A stretch of DNA of 61,117 bases from positions 1-61,117 of IMG/VR virus record IMGVR_UViG_3300020469_005555; one strand, 5' to 3'. Shown piece by piece: positions 7,483-28,126 of the stretch. The stretch is from a virus. Lineage: Duplodnaviria; Caudoviricetes. Under the pieces are notes generated by a model. That model saw only the letters and a list, made by a program, of their open reading frames with translations. It had not been told where the DNA came from and did no database searches. The stretch's first letter is position 1. The number at the start of each line of letters is the position of its first letter. Both the position numbers and the translations under genes were made by a program.

Positions 7483-8823
7483 TTAGTAACGATAATCATC
7501 TGTCTTGTAAGGGCCATCTTTGGCTACGCCTATGTAGTCTGCTTGTTTATCAGTAAGGTCAGTCAATCTTGCATCTAAATACCACAGATGTAACCTTGCT
7601 ACTTCTTCGTCTAGCTTTTTAGGAAGGACGTATAACTTATTTTCATATTTTTCTGAATATTGAAAAAGCTCAATCTGTGCTAAGACTTGATTAGTAAACG
7701 AACAAGACATAACAAAACTTGGGTGGCCTGTGGCGCATCCAAGATTTACTAATCTTCCTTGTGCCAAAAGAATTACTTTCTTTTCTCTATTTCCAAAACC
7801 CCGTCTATCTTCGACTGTATATGAATCAACTAGGTATTTGATGTTCTCATGACTTTTTGCATTTTTGTGCAACCAAGCAACATCAATTTCATTGTCAAAA
7901 TGACCAATATTGCAGATAATTGCGTTATCTTTCATCCACCCAAAGTGCTTCCCTACTACAACATCGCAGTTTCCTGTTGCTGTCACGATAATATCACCTA
8001 CAAGTACAGCATCATCAATCGGCATAACTTGGAAACCATCCATGGCAGCTTGGAGTGCACATATCGGATCGATTTCAGTTACGATTACTCGGCAACCTGC
8101 TGCCGCAAGAGATGCAGCTGAACCTTTACCAACATCCCCATATCCCGCAACAACTGCCACTTTTCCAGCCATCATTATGTCAGTTGCTCTGCGGATCGCA
8201 TCGACACAAGATTCTTTGCATCCGTACTTGTTGTCAAACTTAGATTTTGTGACTGCGTCATTTACGTTGATTGCCGGGAATGGAAGTTCAACCATGTCTC
8301 TTTCAAAGTCTTTTAATCTTAACACACCAGTTGTTGTTTCTTCTGTCACACCTATAATGTCGGGACAAACTTCTGGATATTTTTCGATAAGATGTTTAGT
8401 TAAGTCTCCGCCATCATCTAGAATCATGTTAGGGTTAGACCGGTTTCCTTCGTGATTTTTAAATTTAATAACTTCATCTAGACACCATTCGTAATCTTCT
8501 TCGGTCATTCCTTTCCAAGCAAACACAGGTATTCCCTTGCTAGCAACATATGCTGCAGCGTGATCTTGAGTAGAGTAAATGTTGCAAGTCATCCATCGCA
8601 CTTCTGCACCTAGTTCTACTAGTGTGTCTATCAAGACTGCAGTTTGAATCGTCATGTGTAAGCAGCCGGCGATCTTAGCGCCTGTAAGAGGCTTAATCTT
8701 ATCCTTGCTGTACTTCTTTCTCAACTCCATTAATCCTGGCATTTCAGCTTCAGCTAGTGCTACTTCTTTCTCCCCCCATTCTGCTAAACTTATGTCAGCT
8801 ATTTTGCAATCTTTCATATTCAT
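7483..8823 (-). CDS. ahcY: S-adenosylhomocysteine hydrolase
   Basis: [60 protein letters not shown] and C-terminal GPYK.D.YRY. Confidence 0.98.
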
Positions 8824-8986
8824 CCTCTAGATTCGATATTTCATTCATTAAAATAGAATATTGTCTTATGTTTCCGTTTCTTTGAAAGTTAATGGCCTCT
8901 TTGTATTTTTTATCAATCTGCTTTTTAATTTTTGTTTTCTCATCCCCAAAAATTAAATTTAATATCGTTTTTATCATTTTAATCAA
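8795..8986 (-). CDS. Small helical protein, DUF6435-like
   Basis: [18 protein letters not shown] motif. Confidence 0.55.
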
Positions 8987-9438
8987 TCCTTGTTTTGAGC
9001 TAACATCTGCTCCATTATTTTCTTTTTTAAGTCTGTCAAAGAATATTCATGATCCCTTTTATGGTAATAAACACTCTTATTAAGTTTTGTTTCCAAATAT
9101 TTTCCTGTATAACTAATATTTCTGTAGTCTGTACCTATTATTCTGACGTCCCAGTCTATTCTTTTAAGTAAATCTAAAAGCTCTTCCTCAGTATTGTAAT
9201 GAACTACATCGTCAACGTACTTTAAAGATTTTAGAATATATTCTCTTTCTTTAATAGTCTGTACGGGTTTGCACTTGTATGGTCTTTCAATTGTTGGATC
9301 ACCTTGCAGTGCCACTATCAAGACATTACAGGCATTAGCTTTCGCATCTTCAAAAAGCTTGACATAACCCGGGTGGATTACATCAAAATTACCTGCAACT
9401 ATTCCTATTTTTACACCCGGACTTTTATCAGTACTCAT
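8983..9438 (-). CDS. Cytidylyltransferase, TagD/glycerol-3-phosphate cytidylyltransferase-like
   Basis: GNFDVIHPGY (HxGH-like), LKYVDDV, IGTDY, R.H.YS.T. Confidence 0.85.
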   Translation of the reverse strand: MSTDKSPGVKIGIVAGNFDVIHPGYVKLFEDAKANACNVLIVALQGDPTIERPYKCKPVQTIKEREYILKSLKYVDDVVHYNTEEELLDLLKRIDWDVRIIGTDYRNISYTGKYLETKLNKSVYYHKRDHEYSLTDLKKKIMEQMLAQNKD

Positions 9439-10321
9439 TAATTTTATCTCTCAAATCATACCTTGGGATCCACCCTAAATCATTAATTGTGTCTTCGATG
9501 TCAGCTAACGTCTCCTTAACCTCAGCTACTCTTTCAGGTATAAAGTTTGTTTTATTTCCTATCATATCAGCAACTTCCCAAATTGAATAATTTTTACCGG
9601 TACCTACGTTGTATACTTTGTGAGGTACTTCTTGTGTTGAAGAATTCATAGCACAAATATTTGCAGAAACAACGTCATCAATATAAGTAAAATCCCTTCG
9701 CTGACTTCCATCACCTACAATTGTCATACTTTCTCCCGAACTATACTGTTTTTTAAATAGACCGATCACGGGAGCATATTCACCTTTAATAGGTTCTCTT
9801 GGACCATAAACATTGAAATAACGCAAAACAATACTAGGAACGCAATACAATTGATTATAAAGTTTACAAACCTGTTCTCCCATCCACTTCGACATTGAAT
9901 ATGGATTGAGACAGTCAGCAGGCATATTTGGTGCAAACGGTATTGAATTCTGTTTACCATACAAGGAAGATGTACCTGAATATATTACTCTTTTAACAGA
10001 GTTCAATCTAGACCATTCTAGAACCCTCTGTGTACCTACAACATTAACTTCAAAGCATTTATTAGGAGAACCAATGGTAGGTTGAATGCGACTGCGTGCA
10101 GCAAGGTGAAAGACATAATCAACGTCACTAAAAATGCTGCTACAATTATCTTTCGATATGTCTTTTTCATAATAAACTGCCTGATCATTGTAATAAAACC
10201 TCGCGTTTTCGTTTGCTGACAAGTCGTCAATGACACGAACTTCATGACCTAATAATACGAGCTTGTCAACAATGTGACTTCCGATGAAGCCACACCCACC
10301 TGTCACTAAACTTATCTTCAT
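9428..10321 (-). CDS. NAD-dependent nucleotide-sugar epimerase/dehydratase
   Basis: VTGGCGFIGSH, YSMSK (YxxxK), LRYFNVYGP, GDGSQRRDF. Confidence 0.95.
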   Translation of the reverse strand: MKISLVTGGCGFIGSHIVDKLVLLGHEVRVIDDLSANENARFYYNDQAVYYEKDISKDNCSSIFSDVDYVFHLAARSRIQPTIGSPNKCFEVNVVGTQRVLEWSRLNSVKRVIYSGTSSLYGKQNSIPFAPNMPADCLNPYSMSKWMGEQVCKLYNQLYCVPSIVLRYFNVYGPREPIKGEYAPVIGLFKKQYSSGESMTIVGDGSQRRDFTYIDDVVSANICAMNSSTQEVPHKVYNVGTGKNYSIWEVADMIGNKTNFIPERVAEVKETLADIEDTINDLGWIPRYDLRDKINEY

Positions 10322-11163
10322 TTTTTACTTGTACTCACTGCGCCTGGTATATCATACCAGTCTAGATCTTTTCTTACTTGTTTGTTTTTCTCCCAAGCAC
10401 CTTTCATTACATCAGGTGAAACGCCAAGTTCTTCAGCACGCTTTATCATTGCATTTAAATCTTTGGGGAAACATTTGCCTCCAAAACCAAAATCACCATC
10501 ATGCCCAGGAACGTCAATATGAGAATTCCCAATCCTTCCATCTGTTATAAACCCCTCTAGTGCTGATTCCCAGTCACCATTAATTGCTTCACAAACTTGA
10601 TACATTTCATTCATAAATGATACTTTGGTTGCAAAGAAACAGTTTGCCATATACTTGATTAATTGTGCAGTACCAAAATCAGTCTTAATTACTTTTGTGT
10701 ATGGAAATCTTAGTTTATATAGTTTTTCAACAATATTGTTTGCCAACAGGTTGTCGCTTCCCAATACAATTCTAGAAGTATTTATAAAGTCTAACCTTGC
10801 TTTTCTTTCTGTCAAAAATTCAGGATTAAACACAAAATTTAGTTCTGGAAAGTTGGCTGCTAAATTTTCAGTAGTTCCAGGCACTACAGTTGATTTAATA
10901 ACAATTACTTTCTGTTTCATACATTCATACTGGGCTAATTCTTCTACAACTGAATTAACAATTGACAGATCACATTCTCCTGACTCAAACATCGGTGTTG
11001 GAACACAAACAAATAATACATCTGAATTGTTCGCTAAATCTTTCATTGAGTGTGTCGACCTTTTTGGATCTTTATCGTAAATCATAATATCATCTACATG
11101 AAGTATGAATCCATGCATAATTGCAGAACCTACAAACCCATTCCCTATAATTCCTATTTTCAT
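10318..11163 (-). CDS. ugd: UDP-glucose/GDP-mannose 6-dehydrogenase (short form)
   Basis: GNGFVG, VCVPTP, IKSTVVPGT, FNPEFL, KYMAN, GFGGKCFPKD. Confidence 0.9.
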   Translation of the reverse strand: MKIGIIGNGFVGSAIMHGFILHVDDIMIYDKDPKRSTHSMKDLANNSDVLFVCVPTPMFESGECDLSIVNSVVEELAQYECMKQKVIVIKSTVVPGTTENLAANFPELNFVFNPEFLTERKARLDFINTSRIVLGSDNLLANNIVEKLYKLRFPYTKVIKTDFGTAQLIKYMANCFFATKVSFMNEMYQVCEAINGDWESALEGFITDGRIGNSHIDVPGHDGDFGFGGKCFPKDLNAMIKRAEELGVSPDVMKGAWEKNKQVRKDLDWYDIPGAVSTSKK

Positions 11164-11169
11164 TTTTAT

Positions 11170-11763
11170 TTACTCCTCTCCGGGTAAACTTCTCAAATAC
11201 GAGTCACCCATTCTTTCTTTTTCCTTTGATATCGACGGACAGTGACTTCCTGCCTTATGTATTAGATCATAAAGCAGCATAAGACAAAGAACTTCAACTG
11301 TATGGAAATATTCACAATTAAGAATTACTTCATCAATGTCGTCTTTTAATATCGTTGACTTTTGGCCAGAAACCATATGGGTCATAAAACCTTGCTCATC
11401 TGCCCAATGCAAAGATCCGATGATGTTTGATGAATTACCAGAACACGACAAGCCTAAAATTAAGCTTTCCTCTTTTTCGTCAACCATTGCAATGGTATCT
11501 AACCATCTAATAAATACTTTTGCAAAACCGTGATCATTAGAATTAGAAGTGATATACCCTACGCTATCAAACGAATAAAATGCTTTACCCTTTATAAGCC
11601 GAGACATGTCTGTGGCCATATGACTCGAGACAAAATGAAGCCCGCCGTTACCAATGATATATATTCTTTTCGCTTTTGTGATTTTTTGCACTAAGTCGTT
11701 ATAGTTTTTACTTTCAACTGTTGTTTTAAATTTACTTTCAATACTTTCAAAATCAGTTACCAT
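11170..11763 (-). CDS. SIS-domain sugar-phosphate isomerase, GmhA-like (divergent)
   Basis: IIGNGG...SSHMATD, ND.GF..VF, GLSCSGNSSNI. Confidence 0.75.
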   Translation of the reverse strand: MVTDFESIESKFKTTVESKNYNDLVQKITKAKRIYIIGNGGLHFVSSHMATDMSRLIKGKAFYSFDSVGYITSNSNDHGFAKVFIRWLDTIAMVDEKEESLILGLSCSGNSSNIIGSLHWADEQGFMTHMVSGQKSTILKDDIDEVILNCEYFHTVEVLCLMLLYDLIHKAGSHCPSISKEKERMGDSYLRSLPGEE

Positions 11764-11776
11764 TTTATTTCTCCAA

Positions 11777-12595
11777 TTATAATATTACTGCTGATATTCC
11801 CTTAACACATTTGTTACACGGGTTTATTTTATCTCTATTTCCTTTTGCAAGAAGAATCGTTGCTTCTTGCATCTTTTTTCCGTACCAAATCTCTTCCAAT
11901 GTGTTATCATTTACATTACCTAGTGTGTACTGGACTAAGGAATCCTCACAACATATTGGAACTTCACCATCATATCTAATATTCATTTTTGAGTGTATTT
12001 TTTTACAATTAGACTTTAATGGTACTTTACTGTCTAAATGTGCACCGCCCATAAACTTATTTCTTCTATCAACAGTTCCTGCCCGGTTGCCAAAGTTAAA
12101 GTATTCACCAACTAAATTATACCTTGACTTAGGTATGGATAATGTGCTTAGATAATTTTCCCACCAAGATAACAATTTTCTTCTACCTTCCATATCTTTA
12201 TAATCATACAGCGAAATGTTTGTATAGGAAACTCTAGAAAAGAACTCTTTTGCATACTGGCGATCAGATTTAAGTGTATCACCATTTGTCACAATTTCAG
12301 TATGACATTTTAACTCTACTGCTTTATCTAAAAATTTAAATAGTCTGGGATCAAGTGTTGGTTCATTATAAAAGTCAAAACCGACAGAAGCGTTAAAACC
12401 CTGACTTACATTTTGTTCAAGAATTGAATAAACTAGTTTATCTGTCATTTTAAGATCAATCATTTTTTTCTTGCCAGCGACGTTAATCTTCCATCTCGTT
12501 TCATCTTTTGATCTTGGACAGAACACACAGCGACGATTGCAGTCTGAATTTATCTCAATCCTTATTTGCTTAAATGGTCTAATCAAATTATTCAT
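11777..12595 (-). CDS. Radical SAM dehydrogenase with twitch/SPASM domain, BtrN-like
   Basis: IEINSDCNRRCVFCP, F.FYNEP, TNGD.L, NRAG, ICCED...LGNV...LEEIW, C..C; 272 aa; motif order matches BtrN as recalled. Confidence 0.75.
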   Translation of the reverse strand: MNNLIRPFKQIRIEINSDCNRRCVFCPRSKDETRWKINVAGKKKMIDLKMTDKLVYSILEQNVSQGFNASVGFDFYNEPTLDPRLFKFLDKAVELKCHTEIVTNGDTLKSDRQYAKEFFSRVSYTNISLYDYKDMEGRRKLLSWWENYLSTLSIPKSRYNLVGEYFNFGNRAGTVDRRNKFMGGAHLDSKVPLKSNCKKIHSKMNIRYDGEVPICCEDSLVQYTLGNVNDNTLEEIWYGKKMQEATILLAKGNRDKINPCNKCVKGISAVIL

Positions 12596-13626
12596 AACGT
12601 GTCAATATTTATCTTTTTAAAAATCTTTCTTATACTGTGTTCGTCAAAAGAAACCATATTTAAGTCTCCTTTTTCTTTTGCTAGTATACACCTTATTTCA
12701 TCTTTGTTTTTGTTCTTTTTATCACTTTTTAAAGCTTTGATATATATCTCAACATCAAAATTATCTCTAAACGTCACATAATGATTTAAATTTTTATTTT
12801 TAAAAATTGAAATGACACTATCTTCGTCTAAGTCTTTATTTGTGTACTTAGAAGCTAATGCAACTTTATTTGCTATATCAATACCTAAACCCACTGCGAC
12901 GCCGTGTGGAATTTTAAAATTAGTCATTGACTCAATTGCGTGACCAAACGTGTGACCAAAATTCATGATGTTTCGATGTCCAGTGTCAAACTCATCTATT
13001 TCTATCACTTCTTTTTTAATTTGGAGTGCGTGAAGTATTGTTTCATCATCAACGCTAGTTTTGTTTAGACAATTGATTATCTTTTTAGGTTTAATCCTAT
13101 TTTTACTGTCTACCACACTAATTTTTATAATTTCACCTAACCCGGAGTTTATATCTTGGTACTCAAGAGTGTTTAGGAAGTTTTTGTCAATTATAATTCT
13201 GCCTGGAGGGTTGAAGTTCCCAACTAAATTTTTGTAATCGCCTAAATTAATTGATGTCTTTCCTCCAATACAACTATCACATTGTGCGAGTAAAGTTGTA
13301 GGATAAAAGTTCCAGTGAATACCTCTGTAAATAATACTCGAAACAAACCCAGCAATGTCTTGTACTATTCCACCACCTACTGCGCCAATTACATTTCCTC
13401 GCTTTAATCCAAGACTAATTAATTTAGTAATATATTTTTCACAAGATGCATATGTTTTATTGCTTTCAATAGCGTCAATAAATACTATTTTTTGACTATC
13501 AATATTTTGAAATAATATTGGATACAAATGATATACTTTTCTATCTATCAAAAAGTAGTCTTCTTGGAAATTTATATCGCTTGTAAAATATACACTATAA
13601 TCTTTAATTCTTGATGTTATTAACAT
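12592..13626 (-). CDS. Sugar-phosphate cyclase, 3-dehydroquinate synthase (AroB) superfamily
   Basis: GGGIVQD, RGI, PTTLLAQCDSCIGGKT, KNLVG, R..MNFGHTFGHAIE, HG.AV. Confidence 0.9.
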   Translation of the reverse strand: MLITSRIKDYSVYFTSDINFQEDYFLIDRKVYHLYPILFQNIDSQKIVFIDAIESNKTYASCEKYITKLISLGLKRGNVIGAVGGGIVQDIAGFVSSIIYRGIHWNFYPTTLLAQCDSCIGGKTSINLGDYKNLVGNFNPPGRIIIDKNFLNTLEYQDINSGLGEIIKISVVDSKNRIKPKKIINCLNKTSVDDETILHALQIKKEVIEIDEFDTGHRNIMNFGHTFGHAIESMTNFKIPHGVAVGLGIDIANKVALASKYTNKDLDEDSVISIFKNKNLNHYVTFRDNFDVEIYIKALKSDKKNKNKDEIRCILAKEKGDLNMVSFDEHSIRKIFKKINIDTL

Positions 13627-14758
13627 TGCTTAAACTCTCAATAAATTCATTAGTTTTTTCAATTATATAGGATATTTCTTCTTGCGTCAATCCATTATAC
13701 ATGGGTAGACAAACATTATGATCTTTCATGAAATAAGAGTTTGAAAGATTGTCGCCTTTTACACAGTTCATTTTTTTGCTTATGTCTTGCTTGTCACACG
13801 TGTATTCGTAAGCAGCAGGAGGCAAATCAATATCTTTAGACTTCATGAATTTGTAAAACTTACTTTTAACTTTATTGTCACTAGCTACTACAAAATACTT
13901 GTAATAACCTGACTTTGTTTTATCTGGTATTTTAAATCTATCTAATTTTTTATTATATCTTATTTCTGTATCGTACCTTTTAGCAATATTTCTTCTCTCA
14001 TCTATAATTCTATCAGCTTTTTTAGTGTGCAATATGGCAAGCGTAGCAGTTATTTCTGACATCTTAGAGTTACTTCCAATCTCAAAAGATTCATAGTTGT
14101 TAATGCTTCTATCTAAACCTATTGCCCTTATTCTTTTAATCCTGGTGTTCAACTCAAGAGAGTCTGTTGTTATAATACCACCTTCACCTGACGTGAGAAC
14201 TTTAGAATGATGAAAAGAAAAACACGCAGCATGACCAAAGTTTCCAGATTTTACACCATTAAACTCAGCGCCGTGTGCGCAAGCTGCGTCTTCTATTAAA
14301 AAAAGATTGTTCTCATCACAATATTTTCTAATTTCAGAAATTTCATTTGTTATGACTCCACCTACATGCACTATCATAACAGCTTTAGTGTCTTCCCTTA
14401 CAGACTTTTTAATACTTTTGAGTGACAGCGATAAAGTATCACGTGATATATCAGCATATATTGGTATTCCCATACAATTATAGATTGACATGACAGAAGC
14501 TATAAACGTGTAAGCGGGTACTACAACACTATGTCCTTTGATATCGAGTGCACGAAGTATACACTCCAAACCAGTAGTACAATTACTTACTGCAATTGAA
14601 TATTTTGATTTATTAAAATCACACCAAAGTTTTTCAAAAAGATCAATATTAGGACCACCATCAGTCAAATACCCAACTTTAAGTGATTTTTCAATTTCAT
14701 TCTTTACAAATTCAATATCTTCCTGACTATATTCTAATCTATATTTTTTTATAATCAC
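13604..14758 (-). CDS. DegT/DnrJ/EryC1/StrS PLP-dependent aminotransferase
   Basis: SNCTTGL, IEDAACAHG, FSFHHSKVLTSGEGG, LPMY. Confidence 0.95.
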   Translation of the reverse strand: MIIKKYRLEYSQEDIEFVKNEIEKSLKVGYLTDGGPNIDLFEKLWCDFNKSKYSIAVSNCTTGLECILRALDIKGHSVVVPAYTFIASVMSIYNCMGIPIYADISRDTLSLSLKSIKKSVREDTKAVMIVHVGGVITNEISEIRKYCDENNLFLIEDAACAHGAEFNGVKSGNFGHAACFSFHHSKVLTSGEGGIITTDSLELNTRIKRIRAIGLDRSINNYESFEIGSNSKMSEITATLAILHTKKADRIIDERRNIAKRYDTEIRYNKKLDRFKIPDKTKSGYYKYFVVASDNKVKSKFYKFMKSKDIDLPPAAYEYTCDKQDISKKMNCVKGDNLSNSYFMKDHNVCLPMYNGLTQEEISYIIEKTNEFIESLSNVNNIKN

Positions 14759-15405
14759 GATTGCCTCGATTTTGCATATGACTCTGCAAACATAAAATCA
14801 ACATACGTATCAATATCAATGCATTCTGTTTCGTCTACATCAAAATTTACAAAACTATCTGTAATTCTTGATTTTTCTTTTAAAAAAGCACCAACTTTAA
14901 ATGTATAAAAACCGGCTTCGCGGAAAAGTGGTTCCATATACTGTGTACCAACAAGCGTTTTAGGATTGTGATTTACTGGTTGTCTTTGGTGCCAGAACCT
15001 ATCATAAACCTTATATAGACCAAAACAGCTTGTCTTATTATGTGATTCAAGCAAACTAAAAGATTTTTTAATTGTATTGGCTTCTAAAAAAGGAGTTGTT
15101 ACGAAAAACTGACCTAACAAACAATCTTCACTTAAGTTTAAACTTTTAATCTGATTCAATATTAAATCATTACCAGAAGTTTCTGGTGAGTTTAATGAAG
15201 GATCACGTTTAATTGTACTAAAATTAAAGTCTTTAGCAATTTGAATGATTTTATCATCGGAACAGTCTATAACAACGTCAATACCGATATTTTTGACTGT
15301 GTCGAAAAGATATTGATATAAAGGCTTACCAGCTAGCAGCATAGTATTCTTGCCGGGTAATCTTTGATTATTGGTTTTAATTGGGATTATAATAACTTTT
15401 TTCAT
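14755..15405 (-). CDS. Acylneuraminate cytidylyltransferase (NeuA/KdsB family)
   Basis: IPIK...QRLPGKN...L.GKPL, T.PF, IDIDT..DF. Confidence 0.9.
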   Translation of the reverse strand: MKKVIIIPIKTNNQRLPGKNTMLLAGKPLYQYLFDTVKNIGIDVVIDCSDDKIIQIAKDFNFSTIKRDPSLNSPETSGNDLILNQIKSLNLSEDCLLGQFFVTTPFLEANTIKKSFSLLESHNKTSCFGLYKVYDRFWHQRQPVNHNPKTLVGTQYMEPLFREAGFYTFKVGAFLKEKSRITDSFVNFDVDETECIDIDTYVDFMFAESYAKSRQS

Positions 15406-16457
15406 AACGATTTAACATACTCAATTATTTTATTAGAAACATTATCTTGTTGTTTAGAATTATACTCAAATTTATTTTGTTTTTCAATTTCGATTTGGAG
15501 TTTTTCCCAACCATCTTCGTTTTTCATGTCAATAATGTTTTCTGAGAAGTCTTCTCTAAAAAAATCGTCTATTTTGTGTTTTCTTCCACCTTCCGTTGTT
15601 AAAATAATACAGTTTGTATTCATATGCATAATATCAAAAAAAGCAAAACTATCATTTATTACAATACAACAGTCTGAAATGTAAGCATGTTCACATAGGC
15701 TTGACGGGAATCTTAAGTCTCTATCGATAATAACGTCTGGTTTGTGTTTCATTAAGTCAAGTGGACTACACCATTTTTCTCTCGGGTAGCCTTTTTCTCG
15801 TTTCTTCCATATGATTTCAAAACTATTTTTGTGTAAAAATTCTATTAGATTATCACAAAATTTAGCAATTTTAAGAGAGTCATTTTTATCTTTTTGACCC
15901 ATTCGCAAGTAAGTTTCCGGTATAAAACATCTTTTGACATTATCCTTTTTTCGAACTGCGTACTTTAAATGATCCATTCTTAAATTGCCCAAATACGTGT
16001 GTGGATACTTATCATAACCGTATTTTACATCGTCTTTTTGTTTTAATATTGACACCCTTGGTTTTACTTGGGGATCTTTTAAATGCTTTACTTCATCCCA
16101 CCAGGCAAAATGTATTATTTTAGCATCATTTAAAATCTTAGGATACCAAACTGGATATTTTGGATTAATCTCCTGTACATACACAACAGTCGGTCTGTAT
16201 TCTTTGTAATCTTTCAAATACTGATCGCGATCATCGTGTCGATAAAATGTAATTATAGGTTTTTTAAAATTGTATTGTTGACACTTTTCACTAAAAAATT
16301 TTTGTATTTCATTAATGTCATAACCGTGTAACTGACGTTTCTTACTGAAACAATCAAAAAAGCTTACCCAGCAGTCATCATCCTGACTTAAATGTTCAAA
16401 TAAAACAGGCAACATATCCTGGAAGTTTGAAGTTCCAAACATAAAAAAACTATACAT
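15402..16457 (-). CDS. Hypothetical, possible GT-B fold transferase
   Basis: Context within the glycan island; GNLRMD and DSFAFFD segments weakly resemble GT-B phosphotransferases/sialyltransferases. Confidence 0.4.
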   Translation of the reverse strand: MYSFFMFGTSNFQDMLPVLFEHLSQDDDCWVSFFDCFSKKRQLHGYDINEIQKFFSEKCQQYNFKKPIITFYRHDDRDQYLKDYKEYRPTVVYVQEINPKYPVWYPKILNDAKIIHFAWWDEVKHLKDPQVKPRVSILKQKDDVKYGYDKYPHTYLGNLRMDHLKYAVRKKDNVKRCFIPETYLRMGQKDKNDSLKIAKFCDNLIEFLHKNSFEIIWKKREKGYPREKWCSPLDLMKHKPDVIIDRDLRFPSSLCEHAYISDCCIVINDSFAFFDIMHMNTNCIILTTEGGRKHKIDDFFREDFSENIIDMKNEDGWEKLQIEIEKQNKFEYNSKQQDNVSNKIIEYVKSL

Positions 16458-17253
16458 TTTTAAAATATCGCTGTTTTAAATTATCATACTGTCTTTTATA
16501 ATGGTCATACACATGTTCTAAATTATTGATTGGCCCTAACTCTTCATCTTTTTCTAGAAGTATTTTAAGATCATCTTTTGTATAAGAAAGTGATAATCCT
16601 TCCTTTGAATTGTTGCTAAAACTATCTATTGCCAACTTCATTGCTTGTCCGTAAAAATTATCAGAAGTTATTTCGTTCAAATTGTAATATCCTAAATGGC
16701 CTCTATGAATTCTGTTTAAAAAAGCGTTATACATTTTCGAAGGGTATTGTTCGAACTCGTGTAAATTTGTCAATAAGTCGAAAAAATAAAAACAGTTTAT
16801 CTTCTCTTTGCAATAAGTGCCTATATAACTCTCAGGTTTCTGTATATCTTTTACCAAAGTATCTTGATTTTCAATGATGTGTTTAATTAAGTTTTTTGAA
16901 TAAACGTGAGGTGTTGCGCCTCTGAGTTTTTTCATAAAGCACTCGTAGCCTGACCCTTCACTTAACACGAAGCCATTATCACTTGCTAATAAAGCTTCGT
17001 GCGATTTTTCTACCATTTCCTTAATTCCATCAAAAACTAGTCTATCTGCATCACTCCTTATGAAGAGGTTTTGTTCTTTAAACTCATCTGACAATGCAAT
17101 ATTAAAAAATCTGCTCATCTTGTCAGCAAATGATTCTTCTTGATCTAGTACAATAATGTTTTTAAAACCTAGACTTTTAAAACACAAAACTGAAAGTTCT
17201 TTCGTTCTTTCTTCCATTTCAAATATTACTACCGGTACTTCTTCAACAATCAT
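16450..17253 (-). CDS. Hypothetical, possible GT-A glycosyltransferase
   Basis: FIRSDADRLVF (DxD) after a beta strand; cluster context. Confidence 0.45.
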   Translation of the reverse strand: MIVEEVPVVIFEMEERTKELSVLCFKSLGFKNIIVLDQEESFADKMSRFFNIALSDEFKEQNLFIRSDADRLVFDGIKEMVEKSHEALLASDNGFVLSEGSGYECFMKKLRGATPHVYSKNLIKHIIENQDTLVKDIQKPESYIGTYCKEKINCFYFFDLLTNLHEFEQYPSKMYNAFLNRIHRGHLGYYNLNEITSDNFYGQAMKLAIDSFSNNSKEGLSLSYTKDDLKILLEKDEELGPINNLEHVYDHYKRQYDNLKQRYFKNV

Positions 17254-17920
17254 ACACCAACTCTGCTGTTTTCTTAAAATTTTCTTTTGAATCTATATCA
17301 AATTGAAGATCTAACCCGAGACATTCTGAGAGATAAGACTTTAAATACTTGTTAACATCTCTTTTTGCAGTTTCGTGCGGCTTCCACCACGCGTCTAGAT
17401 CAAACTTTTCATAATCTTTTCTTTTGTTTTCGTATATGAGATCAAAACTTCTAAACGATTCTAAATCAATAAAGTTAATGGTATCATTATAAAATATTAA
17501 ATTGCACGGTGCTAAGTCTGTATATGTCCCACCTATCTCTATAGATTTTCTAAAAACATTTTGTATAAAAGTTTTTCTTTTATCTAGCGAGGTCATGCGA
17601 TTAAACATCGACCAGTCTTTATCACTTTTACCAGGCTCAGCTGCTGAAACACCTGCAATTTGTACATACCCACGTGGTCCAGACTCGTCTTCGATCAATT
17701 CAATTACTGATTGTGCATTATTAGCATTATAAAACTCTTGTTCAATACAAAAACTTGTAATCAAGCCTTGCGTCCAGTTAGGTACCCACAATTTAAAAAA
17801 CTTGTTACTTTCAGGTAGAAAATAAACAGCGCGTTCTCTTTTCTTTTTCACAGTAATTACTTTCTGTTTACTTATGCTGTTTAAAAAATCTTCATATTTA
17901 ACTTTAGATAAATGTTTCAA
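17243..17920 (-). CDS. Protein-kinase-like fold small-molecule kinase (APH/Kdo-kinase-like)
   Basis: FFKLW (beta-3 Lys), YTDLAPCNLI (catalytic loop), FIDLE (DFG-like). Confidence 0.6.
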   Translation of the reverse strand: MKHLSKVKYEDFLNSISKQKVITVKKKRERAVYFLPESNKFFKLWVPNWTQGLITSFCIEQEFYNANNAQSVIELIEDESGPRGYVQIAGVSAAEPGKSDKDWSMFNRMTSLDKRKTFIQNVFRKSIEIGGTYTDLAPCNLIFYNDTINFIDLESFRSFDLIYENKRKDYEKFDLDAWWKPHETAKRDVNKYLKSYLSECLGLDLQFDIDSKENFKKTAELVYDC

Positions 17921-19404
17921 CTTGTTTTCCGTAAAATAAAGTCAGGAATTTTTATATTACCCATTCCCATTGAATGTTCATATTTTATACCGGGACGAGC
18001 AGGATTAAACTTTATTTTAAGCTTTTCTCTAACTTCTTCTTCTAATTCGTTTCTAGCTTGAACAATTTCTTGGGGTTTTAAGTGGTCTGTCCACACATAA
18101 GAAATGTAACCACCGTTCGGATCACCTTTATAGTAGTCTAGTTCTGTAAGATAATCAATGTTTGATTGGTAAAGTTTATCCCCCGTAAGGTCTGATGTGT
18201 ATACATAATAGTCATCCTTTTTAATTGCATCGTCAAAATACGGTGATCCCGGGTATGTTGTTATAATTGTGCAATCAAATTCTTCAGGTTCAACTTCCAA
18301 CAACCACTTTTTTGTATTCTCTATTGATTCAATGCTTTCTCCAGCGTGTCCGATTGACATTAACGCTTTGACCTTAAGGTTGTGCCTTTTTGCAATTTCC
18401 ACTGCGCGAGTGTTATCTTCACGCTTAGCCATTTTTTTAATATTTCTGAGTATTCTTTCATCGCCAGATTCAAAACCGGTTAATAACCATCTAAATCCTG
18501 CCCTATACATTGCAGCCGCCTGGTCGTCTTTAAACAACTCTGCCTTCACAAAACCACGAAGTCTAAATTCCTCACCAAGTTCCATTTGTAGATCTGTTAT
18601 TTTATTCAACAGCTCTATTAAATTTTTGTTCACATTAAGTTCATCATCATAAAACATAAACCCTGTATATCCGTAAGAATGATAAAGATGTCTCATTTCT
18701 TCTACAATTGAGTCTGAACTTCTTTGTCTAATTTTCCTGAGAAACGGTGAGTTTCTTCCTGAACAAAATGAACACTTAAATGGGCAACCAAGTTGTGCGA
18801 TTAAGCTTGTTGCTTTTTTACCTGCAATGTTGTATTTGTATGAGTCAACATCAACCAAGTGACGTGCCGGCAATGGCAATTCTGAAAACTGTTGATTTGT
18901 TAAAAAGAAAGGAGACTTACGATCATCTGCATCAATCACACCCTTGTCTATTTTTAATGCTTCAAATATTGTATACTCACCGTCACCACACACTAGGACG
19001 TCAAATATATTAGATAAATTAGTGATATCAATCGTCGCCCTGTCACTTTTATCTAAGCCTTTTTTAATTTCTCTTTTGCTTGCTGTATTCATTAGTGTTA
19101 CATGAGGCCCACCTAATATTATTTTACAATCGACAGTGTTTTCTCTTATCACTTTTGCAATACTTACAGAAAAAGGAACTTGGGGTGTTGAAGCTGTTAG
19201 CCCAAAGTCCTTAATGTGTGTATTTTCCTTACAATAGTCTTCAACGACTTTTAAATAATTGTCAACGCCACTTAGGTCTAAAAAATCAATCTTAAAACCT
19301 CTACTTTCTAAAGAAGAGGCGACCCTAAGTATGCCAATGTGCATAAATACTCTTTCATCAAGTAAAAACGGAGATGGAGGTGTTATTAAACATATAGTGT
19401 TCAT
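17917..19404 (-). CDS. Cobalamin-binding radical SAM enzyme (class B methyltransferase-like)
   Basis: N-terminal B12-binding domain (IILGGPHVT, GDGE), GCPFKCSFC, FYDDE, GFESG, TYPGS. Confidence 0.9.
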   Translation of the reverse strand: MNTICLITPPSPFLLDERVFMHIGILRVASSLESRGFKIDFLDLSGVDNYLKVVEDYCKENTHIKDFGLTASTPQVPFSVSIAKVIRENTVDCKIILGGPHVTLMNTASKREIKKGLDKSDRATIDITNLSNIFDVLVCGDGEYTIFEALKIDKGVIDADDRKSPFFLTNQQFSELPLPARHLVDVDSYKYNIAGKKATSLIAQLGCPFKCSFCSGRNSPFLRKIRQRSSDSIVEEMRHLYHSYGYTGFMFYDDELNVNKNLIELLNKITDLQMELGEEFRLRGFVKAELFKDDQAAAMYRAGFRWLLTGFESGDERILRNIKKMAKREDNTRAVEIAKRHNLKVKALMSIGHAGESIESIENTKKWLLEVEPEEFDCTIITTYPGSPYFDDAIKKDDYYVYTSDLTGDKLYQSNIDYLTELDYYKGDPNGGYISYVWTDHLKPQEIVQARNELEEEVREKLKIKFNPARPGIKYEHSMGMGNIKIPDFILRKTS

Positions 19405-21411: not shown

Positions 21412-21924
21412 TTAAACCTCTATAGAATTTATTTTGCATTTTTTTTTAATAAAGTCGTTTGCTTGCATTGAGACTGTGCCTTTTTCAAACGAGTGAATTA
21501 TTATCCAGCTAGATACAATCGTGATTTCACCCGGAACATTTTTAATTCCCAACATTTCCGCTAGTGGGTTTTTTTCTACTATTTTAACACCGTTTAATAA
21601 AACCTTATATTTTTCTCTTGTCGATTTTTTAAATTTTATAATTTCTTCCCTATTGCTATAAAGAATAGATATTACAAGCATCTCCGTACCAAACTTTTCA
21701 ATTATTTTTCCTTTTTTAATAATTCTTGCATCTTTCTTGCTTGATCGATCTTGAATACTATAGAAATCAGAAAAATAATTGTGCCAATTTTTATCATTAA
21801 GTACAGCTGTGTACGCTTCTTTAATAACAAATTTTTGTTTAATTTCATTCAATAAATTTTCCCACAATGATTTTGCAGGTGAAAACAAGGTCATTATTAC
21901 AAAATCTTCACCCATGTTAATCAC
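21412..21924 (-). CDS. Hypothetical protein
   Basis: 170-aa ORF abutting both neighbours. Confidence 0.6.
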   Translation of the reverse strand: MINMGEDFVIMTLFSPAKSLWENLLNEIKQKFVIKEAYTAVLNDKNWHNYFSDFYSIQDRSSKKDARIIKKGKIIEKFGTEMLVISILYSNREEIIKFKKSTREKYKVLLNGVKIVEKNPLAEMLGIKNVPGEITIVSSWIIIHSFEKGTVSMQANDFIKKKCKINSIEV

Positions 21925-26713: not shown

Positions 26714-27014
26714 CCTTAACCCCTTTGTCATCTACATAAATGTCACCTGCTGGCTTTCCTAAATGTAATTCATTATATTTTACGCCCCAACTGTCTAATT
26801 GTTTAACTGTGAAATCATAGAACATACTTGTTGCTTTTTCTTTGTCATTTTTAAATCTACCCATACCTCTTGCTGTTTGAAAAATTATATAATGTCCCGC
26901 TAAGTATAGATTATTAATTTTTTTAATTCTTTCAATGATTGGTTTCGCTTCTGAGTAGTCGCCTTCTATCAATGTGCAAATAGTTCCGTCAATGTCAAAC
27001 ACGTAAGTTTTCAT
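26685..27014 (-). CDS. HAD-family phosphatase (capsule-biosynthesis type; possible GmhB role)
   Basis: FDIDGTI, TARG, GKP..D.YVDDK. Confidence 0.85.
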   Translation of the reverse strand: MKTYVFDIDGTICTLIEGDYSEAKPIIERIKKINNLYLAGHYIIFQTARGMGRFKNDKEKATSMFYDFTVKQLDSWGVKYNELHLGKPAGDIYVDDKGVKDEDFFNSKN

Positions 27015-27780: not shown

Positions 27781-28126
27781 TATTAAATATCTTTACCTCA
27801 CAAATATCTTTTCCTACGACATCTTGGGGTTTATAATCACCACCTTTAACTATGACATCAGGATTAACTTCTCTAATTAGATTATAAGGTGTATCTTCTT
27901 TAAATACAATTACTTTGTCAACGTATTTTATACTTTCTAACATTAGTTTTCTATCTTGCTGGTTGTTTATCGGTCTTTTATCACCCTTTAACCGTTTTAC
28001 GCTAGCATCGCTGTTTAATCCAACAATTACAACTTTACCCAAACTATGACAGTATTTTAATAATTCAATATGTCCTCTGTGAAGAACATCAAAACAGCCG
28101 TTAGTAAAAATTATTTTTCCAGACAT
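27728..28126 (-). CDS. hldC: Heptose-1-phosphate adenylyltransferase (RfaE domain II)
   Basis: FTNGCFDVLHRGH, GLNSDASVKRLKG..RP, KGGDY, GYSTT. Confidence 0.92.
   Translation of the reverse strand: MSGKIIFTNGCFDVLHRGHIELLKYCHSLGKVVIVGLNSDASVKRLKGDKRPINNQQDRKLMLESIKYVDKVIVFKEDTPYNLIREVNPDVIVKGGDYKPQDVVGKDICEVKIFNNVPGYSTTKAIQNITGG

What the first reader, a model, noticed from the sequence alone, without database searches (positions are those of the whole stretch)
11777..14758. Aminocyclitol (2-deoxystreptamine-like) biosynthetic triad in a phage: aminotransferase + sugar-phosphate cyclase + BtrN-like radical SAM
Seen: three overlapping genes encoding a DegT/DnrJ aminotransferase, a DHQS-superfamily cyclase and a 272-aa radical SAM/twitch protein. 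Known: butirosin 2-deoxystreptamine is made by these same three families (BtrC cyclase, BtrR aminotransferase acting twice, BtrN radical SAM dehydrogenase). The radical SAM motifs (IE.NS.CNR.C..CP.S; EQ....F...F.FY.EP; TNGD.L; NR.G; C.ED....GN......IW; L..G.R....C..C) follow BtrN as I recall it. Caveat: the cyclase has DHQS-type motifs (GGGIVQD, GGKT, R...NFGHT) rather than BtrC-type ones, so the ring may differ (for example C7 or carboxylated). No other shikimate genes are in the window. Inference: the phage makes an amino-carbasugar, either as a non-hydrolysable virion or DNA decoration or as an aminoglycoside-like molecule against competitors. I know of no described phage pathway of this kind.
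Basis: partly seen in the sequence, partly recalled or inferred. Interest (0 to 1): 0.88.

Follow-up and report, generated by a model that had tools for sequence, protein, structure and literature searches.

The report
Marine phage amino-carbasugar biosynthesis module
A large marine phage carries a tightly packed operon whose enzymes look able to make an amino-substituted ring sugar, attach CMP to it and add it to a glycan, a pathway found in none of the papers searched.

Summary
Three overlapping minus-strand genes encode a BtrN-like twitch radical SAM enzyme (11777-12595), a DHQS-type sugar-phosphate cyclase (12592-13626) and a DegT aminotransferase (13604-14758). BtrN is the radical SAM's only sequence match among solved structures and by far its best fold match.

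The cyclase + aminotransferase + radical SAM logic is real. It recurs with three unrelated aminotransferase families: DegT here, class III in a related phage, class I/II in SAR11 bacteria.

It does not look like a 2-deoxystreptamine or aminoglycoside route:
- The cyclase keeps every AroB substrate and metal motif. It belongs to a viral clade sister to NCBIfam TIGR04425.
- In Bacteroidota, TIGR04425 sits in glycan loci with a SIS isomerase, an SDR and a PseF/KdsB-type cytidylyltransferase.
- The phage operon also holds a SIS isomerase, a cytidylyltransferase and a GT-B-fold protein.
- In sister phages, Kdo-8-phosphate synthase plus an aldolase replace the cyclase, SIS and aminotransferase, beside the same radical SAM and cytidylyltransferase.

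Best reading (about 0.4): a DAHP-like precursor is cyclised to a dehydroquinate-like ring, aminated, oxidised, CMP-activated and transferred to a glycan. Substrate and product are unproven. The papers searched describe no such pathway.

The parts
11777..12595 (-). BtrN-like twitch radical SAM enzyme (272 aa), a putative radical-SAM alcohol dehydrogenase acting on the ring or sugar
   Evidence: Pfam Radical_SAM + SPASM. The only PDB sequence hits are BtrN. CX3CX2C (C19, C23, C26) and four further Cys (C197, C215 invariant; C260, C263 in at least 90% of 27 sequences). AF2 model with Foldseek top hit BtrN, E 2e-12.
12592..13626 (-). DHQS-type sugar-phosphate cyclase (344 aa), in a viral clade sister to NCBIfam TIGR04425
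   Evidence: TIGR04425 367.5 bits (cut-off 400); aroB 250.9 bits (cut-off 305). PDB: DHQS 162 bits, DOIS 95, 4p53 79, 5tpr 63. Tree. All AroB motif residues kept.
13604..14758 (-). DegT/DnrJ/EryC1-family PLP aminotransferase (384 aa) with its catalytic lysine present
   Evidence: Pfam 282 bits. The lysine in FSFHHSK aligns with the lysine of FSFYPGK in 7n63. PDB hits include sugar, inosose and Kdo8N transaminases at similar scores.
14755..15405 (-). CTP_transf_3 cytidylyltransferase (216 aa; PseF/NeuA/KdsB type), overlapping the aminotransferase by 4 nt
   Evidence: Pfam 55.5 bits. Best NCBIfam PseF 74.9 bits, below cut-off. Conserved next to DegT in L002 and L203.
11170..11763 (-). SIS-fold sugar-phosphate isomerase (197 aa; distant GmhA-like), directly downstream of the radical SAM gene
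   Evidence: gmhA model 51.7 bits, far below cut-off. A SIS gene is adjacent in 6 of 6 phage loci that have the cyclase, and in 0 of 3 Kdo-8-P synthase loci. A SIS gene is present in 8 of 11 bacterial TIGR04425 loci.
15402..16457 (-). GT-B-fold protein (351 aa), a candidate transferase for the activated product
   Evidence: No Pfam or NCBIfam hit. AF2 pLDDT 83.5. Foldseek: UDP-GlcNAc 2-epimerases, GT1 enzymes, TagF/TarL, a sialyltransferase; TM about 0.58. Atlas leads: LA_1612 O-antigen protein, polysialyltransferase. Sits upstream of the cytidylyltransferase in window, L002, L203, L209, L212 and L003.
17243..17920 (-). Small kinase-fold protein (225 aa; protein-kinase/APH/Kdo-kinase-like)
   Evidence: Atlas structure search: TM 0.57-0.64 to Pkinase, RIO1 and AceK-kinase clusters; feature hits to YrbL and APH families. 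Conserved in L002, L203, L204, L207 and L003. A lead only.
16450..17253 (-). Conserved protein of unknown function (267 aa) that travels with the module
   Evidence: No family hit. Homologues in L002, L203, L205, L209, L212 and L003.
17917..19404 (-). B12-binding radical SAM enzyme (495 aa), a possible tailoring methylase
   Evidence: Pfam B12-binding + Radical_SAM. Weak NCBIfam hits to HpnJ, BchE, PhpK and AprD4. 71-85% identical in L002, L203 and L204.

Best explanation
The triad is the core of a translationally coupled sugar-tailoring operon: GT-B protein, cytidylyltransferase, DegT aminotransferase, cyclase, radical SAM enzyme, SIS isomerase. It sits inside the glycan island of a large marine phage.

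Proposed mechanism (every step is inferred; none is shown):
1. A host sugar phosphate with a DAHP-like shape (2-keto-3-deoxy acid, terminal phosphate) is taken by the DHQS-type cyclase, possibly after the SIS isomerase has acted.
2. The cyclase uses NAD+ and metal-dependent oxidation, phosphate elimination, reduction and aldol closure. The product is a dehydroquinate-like keto-carbocycle that keeps the alpha-hydroxy-carboxylate.
3. The DegT enzyme converts the ring ketone to an amine.
4. The BtrN-like radical SAM enzyme oxidises a ring hydroxyl to a second ketone. This allows a second amination, as in 2-deoxystreptamine synthesis, or an epimerisation.
5. The PseF/KdsB-type cytidylyltransferase joins CMP to the hydroxyl next to the carboxylate, as for Kdo or sialic acids.
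6. The adjacent GT-B protein puts the residue on a glycan of the virion or of the infected cell.

The product would be a carbocyclic, aminated mimic of a 3-deoxy-2-ulosonic acid. It would not be a free aminoglycoside.
For: Families and overlaps.

BtrN likeness.

The cyclase keeps the AroB motif residues: R in YRG, D in CDS, K in GGK, N in YKN, E and K in GEIIK, K in IKK, R..N.GH..GH, H in PHG, and DKK. It keeps 58 of the 92 columns that are invariant in three true AroBs. It scores higher against DHQS than against DOIS or the two C7 cyclases.

It lies in a 34-member clade with 100% SH-aLRT support, next to proteins that are true TIGR04425 members. Six of the 8 proteins tested from outside that clade score over 400 bits.

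TIGR04425 scores over cut-off in 10 of 301 Bacteroidota genomes and in one Chlorobiaceae MAG. In those 11 loci an SDR is adjacent in 10, SIS in 8 and a CMP-type cytidylyltransferase in 8. The cassette also holds an HpaI-type pyruvate aldolase and a YhcH/NanQ-like protein.

The module is conserved in phage loci L002, L203 and L205.

The aminotransferase is displaced by non-orthologous enzymes. L209 has true TIGR04425 (412 bits) + class III aminotransferase + SIS + radical SAM + SDR + cytidylyltransferase. Four SAR11 loci have radical SAM + class I/II aminotransferase + SDR + KdsB-like + DHQS paralogue. A fifth has KdsB-SDR-KdsB-DHQS paralogue-radical SAM-SDR. All five SAR11 genomes also hold a separate true aroB.

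Module swap: in L003/L214, L211 and L212 the same radical SAM enzyme (54-58% identical), cytidylyltransferase and GT-B protein sit with a true Kdo-8-P synthase (332 bits) and an FSA-type aldolase. The cyclase, SIS and aminotransferase are absent. This suggests the cyclase product fills the chemical slot of Kdo.

No DAHP synthase, NeuB, type II dehydroquinase or shikimate dehydrogenase in G000 or G001.
Against: - No enzyme was assayed. Substrate, product and the order of steps are inference.
- The assignment of the conserved residues to carboxylate, phosphate or metal binding rests on my recall of the Aspergillus DHQS structure. I could not align DOIS, EEVS or DDGS sequences here to show that they differ at those positions.
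- CMP activation of a carbocyclic tertiary alcohol has no precedent that I know of. Such a donor lacks a ring oxygen to help transfer.
- A YhcH/NanQ-like putative anomerase in the Bacteroidota cassette fits a true hemiketal sugar better than a carbocycle.
- In a dehydroquinate-derived amine, the carbon that corresponds to BtrN's site of attack is quaternary. The radical SAM enzyme would have to act elsewhere.
- The SIS gene could instead belong to a heptose route. The window also has a PfkB-like kinase, a small nucleotidyltransferase and a GT9-like protein.
- The radical SAM gene is not always next to the cyclase. In L204, L206, L207 and L210 it lies beside another SPASM radical SAM gene.
- The cyclase scores below the cut-offs of both TIGR04425 and aroB.
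Confidence: 0.4

Rival explanations
1. Non-cyclising 'phospholyase' route to an amino-deoxy ulosonic acid. The DHQS-like enzyme only oxidises, eliminates phosphate and reduces, giving a deoxy-keto ulosonic acid. This is analogous to what 4,6-dehydratases do for NDP-hexoses. The product is transaminated by DegT, tailored by the radical SAM enzyme and CMP-activated as a true hemiketal sugar of the Kdo8N/pseudaminic type.
For: A CMP-type cytidylyltransferase is always present. A YhcH/NanQ-like putative anomerase sits in the Bacteroidota TIGR04425 cassette. The module is interchangeable with a Kdo-8-P synthase module. A Kdo8N transaminase (PDB 5k8b) is among the aminotransferase's hits at 114 bits.
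Against: From established DHQS chemistry (recalled), the enol formed after phosphate loss from a 7-carbon 2-keto acid cyclises readily. With an 8-carbon Kdo-8-P, the phosphate is not beta to the carbon made acidic by oxidation. The phosphate- and ring-binding motifs are unchanged from AroB, which argues for a DAHP-sized substrate.
Confidence: 0.2
2. A hexose-6-P or sedoheptulose-7-P is cyclised to an inosose-like ketone. It is aminated, oxidised by the BtrN-like enzyme and aminated again, giving a 2-deoxystreptamine-like diaminocyclitol. This is used as an aminoglycoside-like molecule or as a decoration.
For: The same three families are used as in butirosin. The aminotransferase hits BtrR-type 2-deoxy-scyllo-inosose aminotransferases (2c7t, 113.7 bits) and a scyllo-inositol transaminase (7b0d, 132.8 bits). 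The SIS protein could supply a hexose or heptose phosphate. An APH-like kinase fold lies nearby. A DHQS-like enzyme (EboD) is reported to cyclise mannose-6-P (passage read in PMC12904256).
Against: The cyclase is closer to DHQS (162 bits) than to DOIS (95) or the C7 cyclases (79, 63) and keeps the AroB motifs. A CMP-forming cytidylyltransferase of the acid-sugar family is fused into the operon. A Kdo-8-P synthase module replaces the cyclase in sister phages. The surroundings are glycosyltransferases, not aminoglycoside genes.
Confidence: 0.15
3. The cyclase is an ordinary AroB carried as an auxiliary metabolic gene to boost host aromatic amino-acid synthesis. Its position next to the aminotransferase and the radical SAM gene is incidental.
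For: All AroB motifs are kept. It is 43% identical to P0149, which NCBI and UniRef name 3-dehydroquinate synthase. JGI labels several relatives 3-dehydroquinate synthase.
Against: It scores below the aroB cut-off (250.9 against 305) and higher for TIGR04425. It belongs to a separate clade, apart from E. coli and SAR11 AroB. P0149 and its group are TIGR04425 members, found in only 10 of 301 Bacteroidota genomes. The genes overlap within one operon. The cyclase co-varies with SIS and an aminotransferase across phage loci. No other shikimate gene was found.
Confidence: 0.05
4. The three genes belong to separate, unrelated sugar pathways that happen to be packed together in a mosaic glycan island. 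For example, the aminotransferase would act on an NDP-4-keto-6-deoxy sugar and the radical SAM enzyme on Kdo.
For: The island is mosaic. The radical SAM gene moves between contexts (L204, L207, L003). The window has other nucleotide-sugar genes: a UGDH-like gene, an epimerase/dehydratase and UDP-galactopyranose mutase.
Against: Cyclase + aminotransferase + radical SAM + cytidylyltransferase recur in three lineages with three different aminotransferase families. Chance packing would not be expected to give this. The start and stop codons overlap.
Confidence: 0.15

Closest known systems
Butirosin 2-deoxystreptamine trio: BtrC cyclase, BtrR/BtrS aminotransferase, BtrN radical SAM dehydrogenase
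   Same: The same three protein families and the same order of chemistry: cyclise a sugar phosphate to a keto-carbocycle, transaminate, oxidise a ring hydroxyl with a twitch radical SAM enzyme. BtrN is the nearest solved structure to the phage enzyme.
   Different: The cyclase is DHQS-type, not DOIS-type. The radical SAM enzyme is only about 22% identical to BtrN over the Foldseek structural alignment. The operon adds a SIS isomerase, a CMP-type cytidylyltransferase and a GT-B protein, and lies in a phage glycan island. No aminoglycoside glycosyltransferase or resistance context was seen.
NCBIfam TIGR04425, 'AroB-related putative sugar phosphate phospholyase (cyclizing)', and its Bacteroidota/Chlorobiaceae cassette
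   Same: The closest family by HMM score and by tree. SIS and a PseF-like cytidylyltransferase are shared neighbours. Phage locus L209 carries a true member at 412 bits.
   Different: The window's protein scores 367.5, under the 400-bit cut-off, and sits in a separate viral clade. The 11 bacterial loci have an SDR, an aldolase, a 2-hydroxyacid dehydrogenase and a GFO-type oxidoreductase, but no BtrN-like radical SAM enzyme. The family itself has no characterised member: its name says 'putative', and a search for its accession found 0 papers.
3-dehydroquinate synthase AroB (shikimate pathway)
   Same: Fold, NAD/metal and substrate motifs are all conserved. It scores 162 bits to Helicobacter DHQS 3clh.
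   Different: Below the aroB cut-off. A separate clade. No other shikimate gene found. Embedded in a sugar operon.
Kdo8N route of Shewanella: KdnB oxidase, KdnA aminotransferase, KdsB (pathway recalled; the KdnA structure 5k8b appears)
   Same: The logic is oxidise a hydroxyl of an acid sugar, transaminate with a DegT-family enzyme, activate with CMP. The sister phage cassettes are built on Kdo-8-P synthase.
   Different: Here the oxidant is a radical SAM enzyme, not an alcohol-dehydrogenase-type metalloenzyme. A DHQS-type cyclase also takes part.
NDP-carbasugar routes of validamycin and acarbose: C7 cyclase, kinase, nucleotidyltransferase, pseudo-glycosyltransferase (recalled)
   Same: A cyclase product that is nucleotide-activated and transferred. 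A kinase-fold protein and a GT-B protein lie nearby.
   Different: Those routes use sedoheptulose-7-P cyclases and glucose-1-P-type nucleotidyltransferases. They make free natural products in actinomycetes, not glycans in phages.

Membership tests
BtrN-type twitch radical SAM dehydrogenases | CX3CX2C radical SAM cluster motif near the N-terminus | tested here: met
   C19, C23 and C26 are invariant in 27 aligned sequences. Pfam Radical_SAM 29.7 bits, just over the 29.5 cut-off.
BtrN-type twitch radical SAM dehydrogenases | Short C-terminal twitch domain with four Cys for one auxiliary 4Fe-4S cluster | tested here: met
   C197 and C215 are invariant; C260 and C263 are in at least 90% of sequences. 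The C-terminal segment 206-264 aligns with BtrN, including the CxxC. The match in spacing to BtrN's ligands is from my recall of the BtrN paper. That only one auxiliary cluster binds was not tested.
BtrN-type twitch radical SAM dehydrogenases | BtrN is the nearest structure or fold | tested here: met
   The only PDB sequence hits at E <= 1 are BtrN. Foldseek rank 1-2 is BtrN at E 2e-12 and 9e-11; the next hit scores 1e-6.
BtrN-type twitch radical SAM dehydrogenases | Two-electron oxidation of a secondary alcohol on an aminocyclitol | not testable with these tools
   Needs anaerobic enzymology.
3-dehydroquinate synthase (AroB equivalog, TIGR01357) | Score over the curated cut-off (305 bits) | tested here: not met
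   250.9 bits. True SAR11 AroBs score 338-357 bits.
3-dehydroquinate synthase (AroB equivalog, TIGR01357) | Catalytic, metal and substrate motif residues | tested here: met
   All motif positions shared with E. coli and SAR11 AroB are kept. The roles of the residues are recalled.
3-dehydroquinate synthase (AroB equivalog, TIGR01357) | Shikimate-pathway context | tested here: not met
   No DAHP synthase, type II dehydroquinase or shikimate dehydrogenase in G000 or G001. Both records are fragments.
TIGR04425 (AroB-related putative cyclising phospholyase) | Score over the curated cut-off (400 bits) | tested here: not met
   367.5 bits. Two other phage-clade members score 373.9 and 378.8 bits. L209's cyclase scores 412.4 bits.
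TIGR04425 (AroB-related putative cyclising phospholyase) | Neighbourhood with SIS isomerase and a CMP-type cytidylyltransferase | tested here: met
   Window. Bacterial loci: SIS in 8 of 11 and cytidylyltransferase in 8 of 11.
2-deoxy-scyllo-inosose synthase / sedoheptulose-7-P cyclases | Closer to these than to DHQS, with their fingerprint active-site residues | tested here: not met
   Bit scores: DHQS 162, DOIS 2d2x 95, 4p53 79, 5tpr 63. That 4p53 is ValA and 5tpr is a DDGS is recalled. The fingerprint residues could not be compared, because no such sequence was available to align and the key papers were not held.
DegT/DnrJ/EryC1 aminotransferases | Family HMM match and PLP-binding lysine | tested here: met
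   282 bits. The lysine aligns with that of 7n63.
DegT/DnrJ/EryC1 aminotransferases | Substrate class (NDP-sugar or free keto-cyclitol/acid sugar) | tested here: inconclusive
   PDB scores do not separate the classes: 146-126 bits for NDP-sugar enzymes, 133 for a scyllo-inositol transaminase, 114 for KdnA and BtrR.
Butirosin-type 2-deoxystreptamine pathway | DOIS-type cyclase acting on glucose-6-P and a carboxylate-free diaminocyclitol product | tested here: not met
   The cyclase is DHQS-type. An acid-sugar cytidylyltransferase is in the operon. The product itself was not determined.

The most novel reading that the evidence does not exclude
Marine phages, and in parallel SAR11 and some Bacteroidota, make a CMP-activated carbocyclic analogue of a 3-deoxy-2-ulosonic acid: an aminated, quinate-like 'carba-Kdo'. 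They build it into a glycan. This would be, to my knowledge, the first carbasugar route dedicated to a glycoconjugate and the first virus-encoded cyclitol pathway. It would also be the first BtrN-type radical SAM dehydrogenase working outside antibiotic biosynthesis. Because a carbocycle has no glycosidic ring oxygen, the residue would resist glycosidases, including the depolymerases of rival phages.
Probability: 0.3. Interest if true: 0.88.

Novelty: new variant of a known kind. Interest (0 to 1): 0.72.

Why it matters
Sugar-phosphate cyclases and BtrN-type radical SAM dehydrogenases are known from antibiotic and sunscreen pathways of cellular organisms. Here the same chemistry is wired to a CMP-transferase and glycosyltransferases, in an abundant marine phage and in SAR11 surface-glycan islands.

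If the product is an aminated carbasugar acid, it adds a new class of monosaccharide mimic to cell- or virion-surface glycans. Such a residue bears on phage-host recognition and on resistance to glycan-degrading enzymes.

It would also give a function to TIGR04425, which has none so far, and to a large family of uncharacterised BtrN-like enzymes. I found 269 viral and 148 bacterial relatives.

The enzymes are small, soluble-looking and directly testable in E. coli.

Tried and rejected
- Nine literature searches found nothing relevant: TIGR04425; BtrN + dehydroquinate synthase + cytidylyltransferase; five terms including phage; sugar phosphate cyclase + phage (one irrelevant coral paper); cyclase active-site terms; 2-deoxy-scyllo-inosamine dehydrogenase + phage (one irrelevant food paper); aminocyclitol + bacteriophage + AMG (none of the 15 listed holds 'aminocyclitol'); dehydroquinate synthase + cytidylyltransferase + polysaccharide. 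I read passages of one hit, PMC8851196, and it was irrelevant.
- Wu et al. 2007 (PMC3127856) is not held. I did not look for Kean et al. 2014 by id. The published fingerprint residues of the cyclase classes therefore could not be checked.
- Passages read in PMC4426668, PMC5133447 and PMC12904256 gave superfamily background only. In PMC12904256 a term search counted no occurrence of phage, virus, radical SAM, BtrN or polysaccharide.
- GenBank phages hold no close cyclase: the best matches cover at most 67% of the protein, at 31-41% identity. The only radical SAM matches are 26-27% identical, in Campylobacter phages.
- Two large unknown ORFs (32891-35479, 50725-53148) have no match in GenBank phages. 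I did not find structural genes in the window.
- RNA evidence is inconclusive. Two oligo-dT marine RNA libraries hold short exact contigs inside the SIS, cyclase and aminotransferase/cytidylyltransferase genes. The tool warns that DNA can be present in such libraries, so transcription is not shown.
- One contig of viral metagenome X5 joins 10509 to 15410, which would skip the module. Only 24 letters lie on the shorter side, below the tool's own reliability bar. I do not rely on it.
- A nonulosonic-acid (NeuB) route is rejected: no NeuB in G000, G001 or G002.
- A phylogeny with characterised DOIS, EEVS, DDGS and EboD sequences was not possible, because no such sequences were available from the tools.

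Full report
**1. What is there**

On the minus strand, a run of overlapping genes reads, 5' to 3':

| Coordinates | Size | Identity |
|---|---|---|
| 17917-19404 | 495 aa | B12-binding radical SAM enzyme |
| 17243-17920 | 225 aa | unknown |
| 16450-17253 | 267 aa | unknown |
| 15402-16457 | 351 aa | unknown |
| 14755-15405 | 216 aa | CTP_transf_3 cytidylyltransferase; best NCBIfam PseF 74.9 bits, sub-cut-off |
| 13604-14758 | 384 aa | DegT aminotransferase, Pfam 282 bits |
| 12592-13626 | 344 aa | DHQ_synthase/DHQS_C protein |
| 11777-12595 | 272 aa | Radical_SAM + SPASM protein |
| 11170-11763 | 197 aa | SIS protein; gmhA model 51.7 bits, far below cut-off |

A short UDP-glucose-dehydrogenase-like gene, an SDR epimerase/dehydratase, a small nucleotidyltransferase and S-adenosylhomocysteine hydrolase follow. 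The triad genes overlap by 4 and 23 nt. The cytidylyltransferase overlaps the aminotransferase by 4 nt.

**2. Is it a phage?**

- The window is an IMG/VR virus record, estimated 18% complete.
- A protein identical to the cyclase lies on a 220,724-bp contig.
- I found PhoH and PD-(D/E)XK genes, and a PrkA-like kinase whose relatives sit in jumbo phages. I found no structural gene in the window. Two large ORFs have no GenBank-phage match.
- The syntenic record G001 has a large terminase on the same contig.
- The 4.2-kb stretch is held near-identically in 18 runs from a dozen or so studies (13 across all 20 rows that hold any of it). Many are labelled viral or marine metagenomes.
- Viral origin is therefore likely but rests partly on outside classification.

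**3. The radical SAM enzyme**

- Against all PDB sequences at E <= 1, the only matches are the two BtrN entries (E 2.4e-13). They align over both the N-terminal core and the C-terminal Cys-rich part.
- In 27 aligned relatives the CX3CX2C cysteines and C197 and C215 are invariant. C260 and C263 are nearly so.
- An AlphaFold model (pLDDT 77.8) finds BtrN first (E 2e-12, TM 0.66/0.73). SuiB, anSME, PqqE, SpeY and DesII follow, at 1e-6 or weaker.
- One JGI homologue is labelled 2-deoxy-scyllo-inosamine dehydrogenase.
- It is a BtrN-type twitch enzyme by every feature I could test. Its reaction is inferred.

**4. The cyclase**

- It scores 367.5 bits for TIGR04425 (cut-off 400) and 250.9 bits for aroB (cut-off 305).
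- Among solved structures it scores 162 bits to Helicobacter DHQS. It scores 95 to DOIS 2d2x, 79 to 4p53 and 63 to 5tpr. From recall, 4p53 and 5tpr are ValA and a DDGS.
- An alignment with E. coli AroB, two true SAR11 AroBs, TIGR04425 members and SAR11 paralogues shows the AroB motif residues all kept: YRG, DS(S/C)xGGK, KN, (A/G)ExIK, the K of the helix before R...N.GH..GH, HG, and DKK.
- 58 of the 92 columns invariant in the three AroBs are kept.
- Changes shared with TIGR04425, in E. coli numbering, are G108Q, F124W and E266V/I/Q. None is a residue that I recall as contacting substrate.
- In a maximum-likelihood tree of 83 proteins, the window falls in a 34-member clade of metagenomic proteins that includes the viral L002 cyclase (100% SH-aLRT). 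That clade sits beside a group of which 6 of 8 tested members pass the TIGR04425 cut-off. E. coli and SAR11 AroB lie across a long branch.

**5. What TIGR04425 sits with**

- It passes cut-off in 10 of 301 Bacteroidota genomes sampled and in one Chlorobiaceae MAG. It is therefore not a housekeeping AroB.
- In those 11 loci an SDR is adjacent in 10. A GmhA-like SIS protein is present in 8, and a PseF- or KdsB-like cytidylyltransferase in 8.
- One representative cassette also has an HpaI/GarL-type pyruvate aldolase, a phosphoglycerate-dehydrogenase-like 2-hydroxyacid dehydrogenase and an IolG/GFO-type oxidoreductase. It further has a YhcH/NanQ-like protein and an arylformamidase-like protein.
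- None of the 11 loci has a BtrN-like gene.
- So cyclase + SIS + CMP-transferase is a conserved, uncharacterised glycan-locus cassette. The phage version replaces the SDR with an aminotransferase and a radical SAM oxidant.

**6. Conservation and mosaicism in phages**

About 40 protein clusters are 46-89% identical to the radical SAM enzyme. The loci I could read fall into four arrangements.

| Arrangement | Loci |
|---|---|
| cytidylyltransferase-DegT-cyclase-radical SAM-SIS | window, L002, L203, L205 (cut at DegT) |
| GT-B protein-cytidylyltransferase-SDR-true TIGR04425 (412 bits)-class III aminotransferase-SIS-radical SAM | L209 |
| cyclase-SIS-radical SAM on a short contig | L208 |
| cytidylyltransferase, true Kdo-8-P synthase (332 bits), FSA-type aldolase (CBS tail in L003/L214), methyltransferase and/or two SDRs, then the radical SAM enzyme; no cyclase, SIS or aminotransferase in the locus | L003 (identical to L214 over its labelled genes), L211, L212 |

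- For L003, the whole 24.6-kb record lacks a cyclase.
- L204, L206, L207 and L210 place the radical SAM gene next to a second SPASM radical SAM gene. L213, L215, L216 and L217 are other or uninformative.
- SIS accompanies the cyclase in 6 of 6 loci. An aminotransferase accompanies it in 5 of the 5 that can be judged.

**7. A bacterial parallel**

- Among 80 bacterial loci with distant relatives of the radical SAM enzyme (24-34% identity), five hold a DHQS paralogue. All five are Pelagibacteraceae.
- Four read radical SAM-class I/II aminotransferase-unknown-SDR-KdsB-like-DHQS paralogue. The fifth reads KdsB-SDR-KdsB-DHQS paralogue-radical SAM-SDR.
- Each of the five genomes also has a true aroB at 338-357 bits. 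The island paralogue scores 236-256 bits.
- The same four activities thus recur with three unrelated aminotransferase families. I take this as the strongest evidence that they form one pathway.
- Across all 160 loci, frequent neighbours of the distant relatives include Kdo-8-P synthase (20 loci, 14 of them viral) and SDRs. They also include class I/II aminotransferases (23 loci) and a weakly sialyltransferase-like protein (26 viral loci).

**8. Other members of the operon**

- The 351-aa protein upstream of the cytidylyltransferase models with pLDDT 83.5 as a GT-B fold. Its structural matches are UDP-GlcNAc 2-epimerases, GT1 enzymes, TagF/TarL and a sialyltransferase. The language-model search points to a Leptospira O-antigen protein family and, weakly, to polysialyltransferase.
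- The 225-aa protein has a small kinase fold.
- The wider island has GT1, GT2 and GT9-like glycosyltransferases and UDP-galactopyranose mutase. It also has methyltransferases, a PfkB-like kinase and a further SPASM radical SAM enzyme.

**9. Interpretation**

- Shown: gene order, family membership, the BtrN-like fold, DHQS-type motifs, and the co-occurrence patterns.
- Inferred: the cyclase takes a DAHP-like 2-keto-3-deoxy acid phosphate and gives a dehydroquinate-like ring. DegT aminates the ketone. The radical SAM enzyme makes a second ketone. The cytidylyltransferase forms a CMP adduct at the alpha-hydroxy-acid carbon. The GT-B protein transfers the residue.
- The swap with a Kdo-8-P synthase module suggests that the product occupies the chemical niche of Kdo. 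A quinate-type ring is the carbocyclic analogue of a 3-deoxy-heptulosonic acid pyranose.
- I put about 0.4 on this specific reading. I put roughly 0.65 on the broader statement that the module makes a CMP-activated tailored sugar or carbasugar for a glycoconjugate rather than a free aminoglycoside.
- The weak points are listed in the Against line. The chief ones are the unprecedented CMP-carbocycle, the putative anomerase in the bacterial cassette, the possible heptose role of SIS, and my reliance on recalled residue roles.

**10. Comparison and novelty**

- The module works like the BtrC/BtrR/BtrN logic of 2-deoxystreptamine. It fails the membership test for that pathway at the cyclase and in its context.
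- It is close to TIGR04425 and AroB but under both cut-offs.
- Nine full-text searches found no description of such a pathway, in phages or elsewhere. In a 2026 review of cyclitols, a term search counted no occurrence of phage, virus, radical SAM, BtrN or polysaccharide.
- I class it as a new variant of a known kind, with a real chance of something categorically new if the CMP-carbasugar reading holds.
None seemed to bear on the claims.

Noticed in passing
window 56522-57403 (-): A 293-aa radical SAM protein strongly resembles viperin (RSAD2 5vsl 137 bits, E 7e-39; viperin-like enzymes 120-134 bits). It lies in a stretch of raised GC: 0.43-0.47 at 56-60 kb, against about 0.33 elsewhere. A viperin homologue in a phage, in a compositionally foreign patch, deserves its own look.
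   Followed up: partly
window 40222-44705 (-): A PrkA/YeaG-like kinase (phrog_22605), SpoVR (366.8 bits) and DUF444/YeaH (384.5 bits) lie together, like the bacterial yeaG-yeaH-ycgB stress set. The kinase has 29-35% relatives in Thermus phages, Ralstonia phage RsoM2USA and huge uncultured phages.
   Followed up: partly
window 26995-27780, 28111-28968, 8983-9438 (-): A PfkB-like kinase C-terminal part, a GT9 heptosyltransferase-like protein and a 151-aa CTP_transf_like nucleotidyltransferase hint at an ADP-heptose-type route in the same island. Such a route could also use the SIS protein.
   Followed up: no
window 10318-11163 (-): The UDP-glucose-dehydrogenase-like ORF is only 281 aa. It matches positions 67-296 of the 413-position NDP-sugar dehydrogenase model. 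This short form is 61-89% conserved in L002, L203, L209, L211, L212 and L213, so it is not an assembly artefact.
   Followed up: partly
window 7483-8823, 17917-19404, 21921-22976 (-): S-adenosylhomocysteine hydrolase, a B12-binding radical SAM enzyme and a second SPASM radical SAM enzyme lie in the same island. With the viperin-like gene, the window holds four radical SAM genes.
   Followed up: no
L202 (Campylobacter phage vB_CjeM_WX1, record 109957-121688): Eucampyvirinae phages carry a 26-27% identical 'BtrN protein'. In vB_CjeM_WX1 it lies beside an amidinotransferase, a class I/II aminotransferase and three more radical SAM genes. This is a second phage cluster with aminocyclitol-like enzyme logic. 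I did not look for any study of it.
   Followed up: no
L004-L081 (viral contigs), e.g. L062 2792-3559 and L063 5910-6722: Distant BtrN-like radical SAM genes are common in viral contigs: 269 relatives, of which 80 were kept. They often lie beside Kdo-8-P synthase (14 viral loci) and a weakly sialyltransferase-like protein (26 viral loci). Radical-SAM tailoring of Kdo-type sugars may be widespread in marine phages.
   Followed up: partly
window 46355-47287 (-), 36090-37436 (-), 60557-60641 (-): UV-damage endonuclease UvdE (211 bits), PhoH (phrog_2765) and a tRNA-Leu(taa).
   Followed up: no
window 10509-15410: One contig of viral metagenome X5 joins 10509 to 15410 with 35 other letters between. 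This would be a variant lacking SIS, radical SAM, cyclase, aminotransferase and cytidylyltransferase. Only 24 letters lie on the shorter side, so it is unreliable.
   Followed up: no
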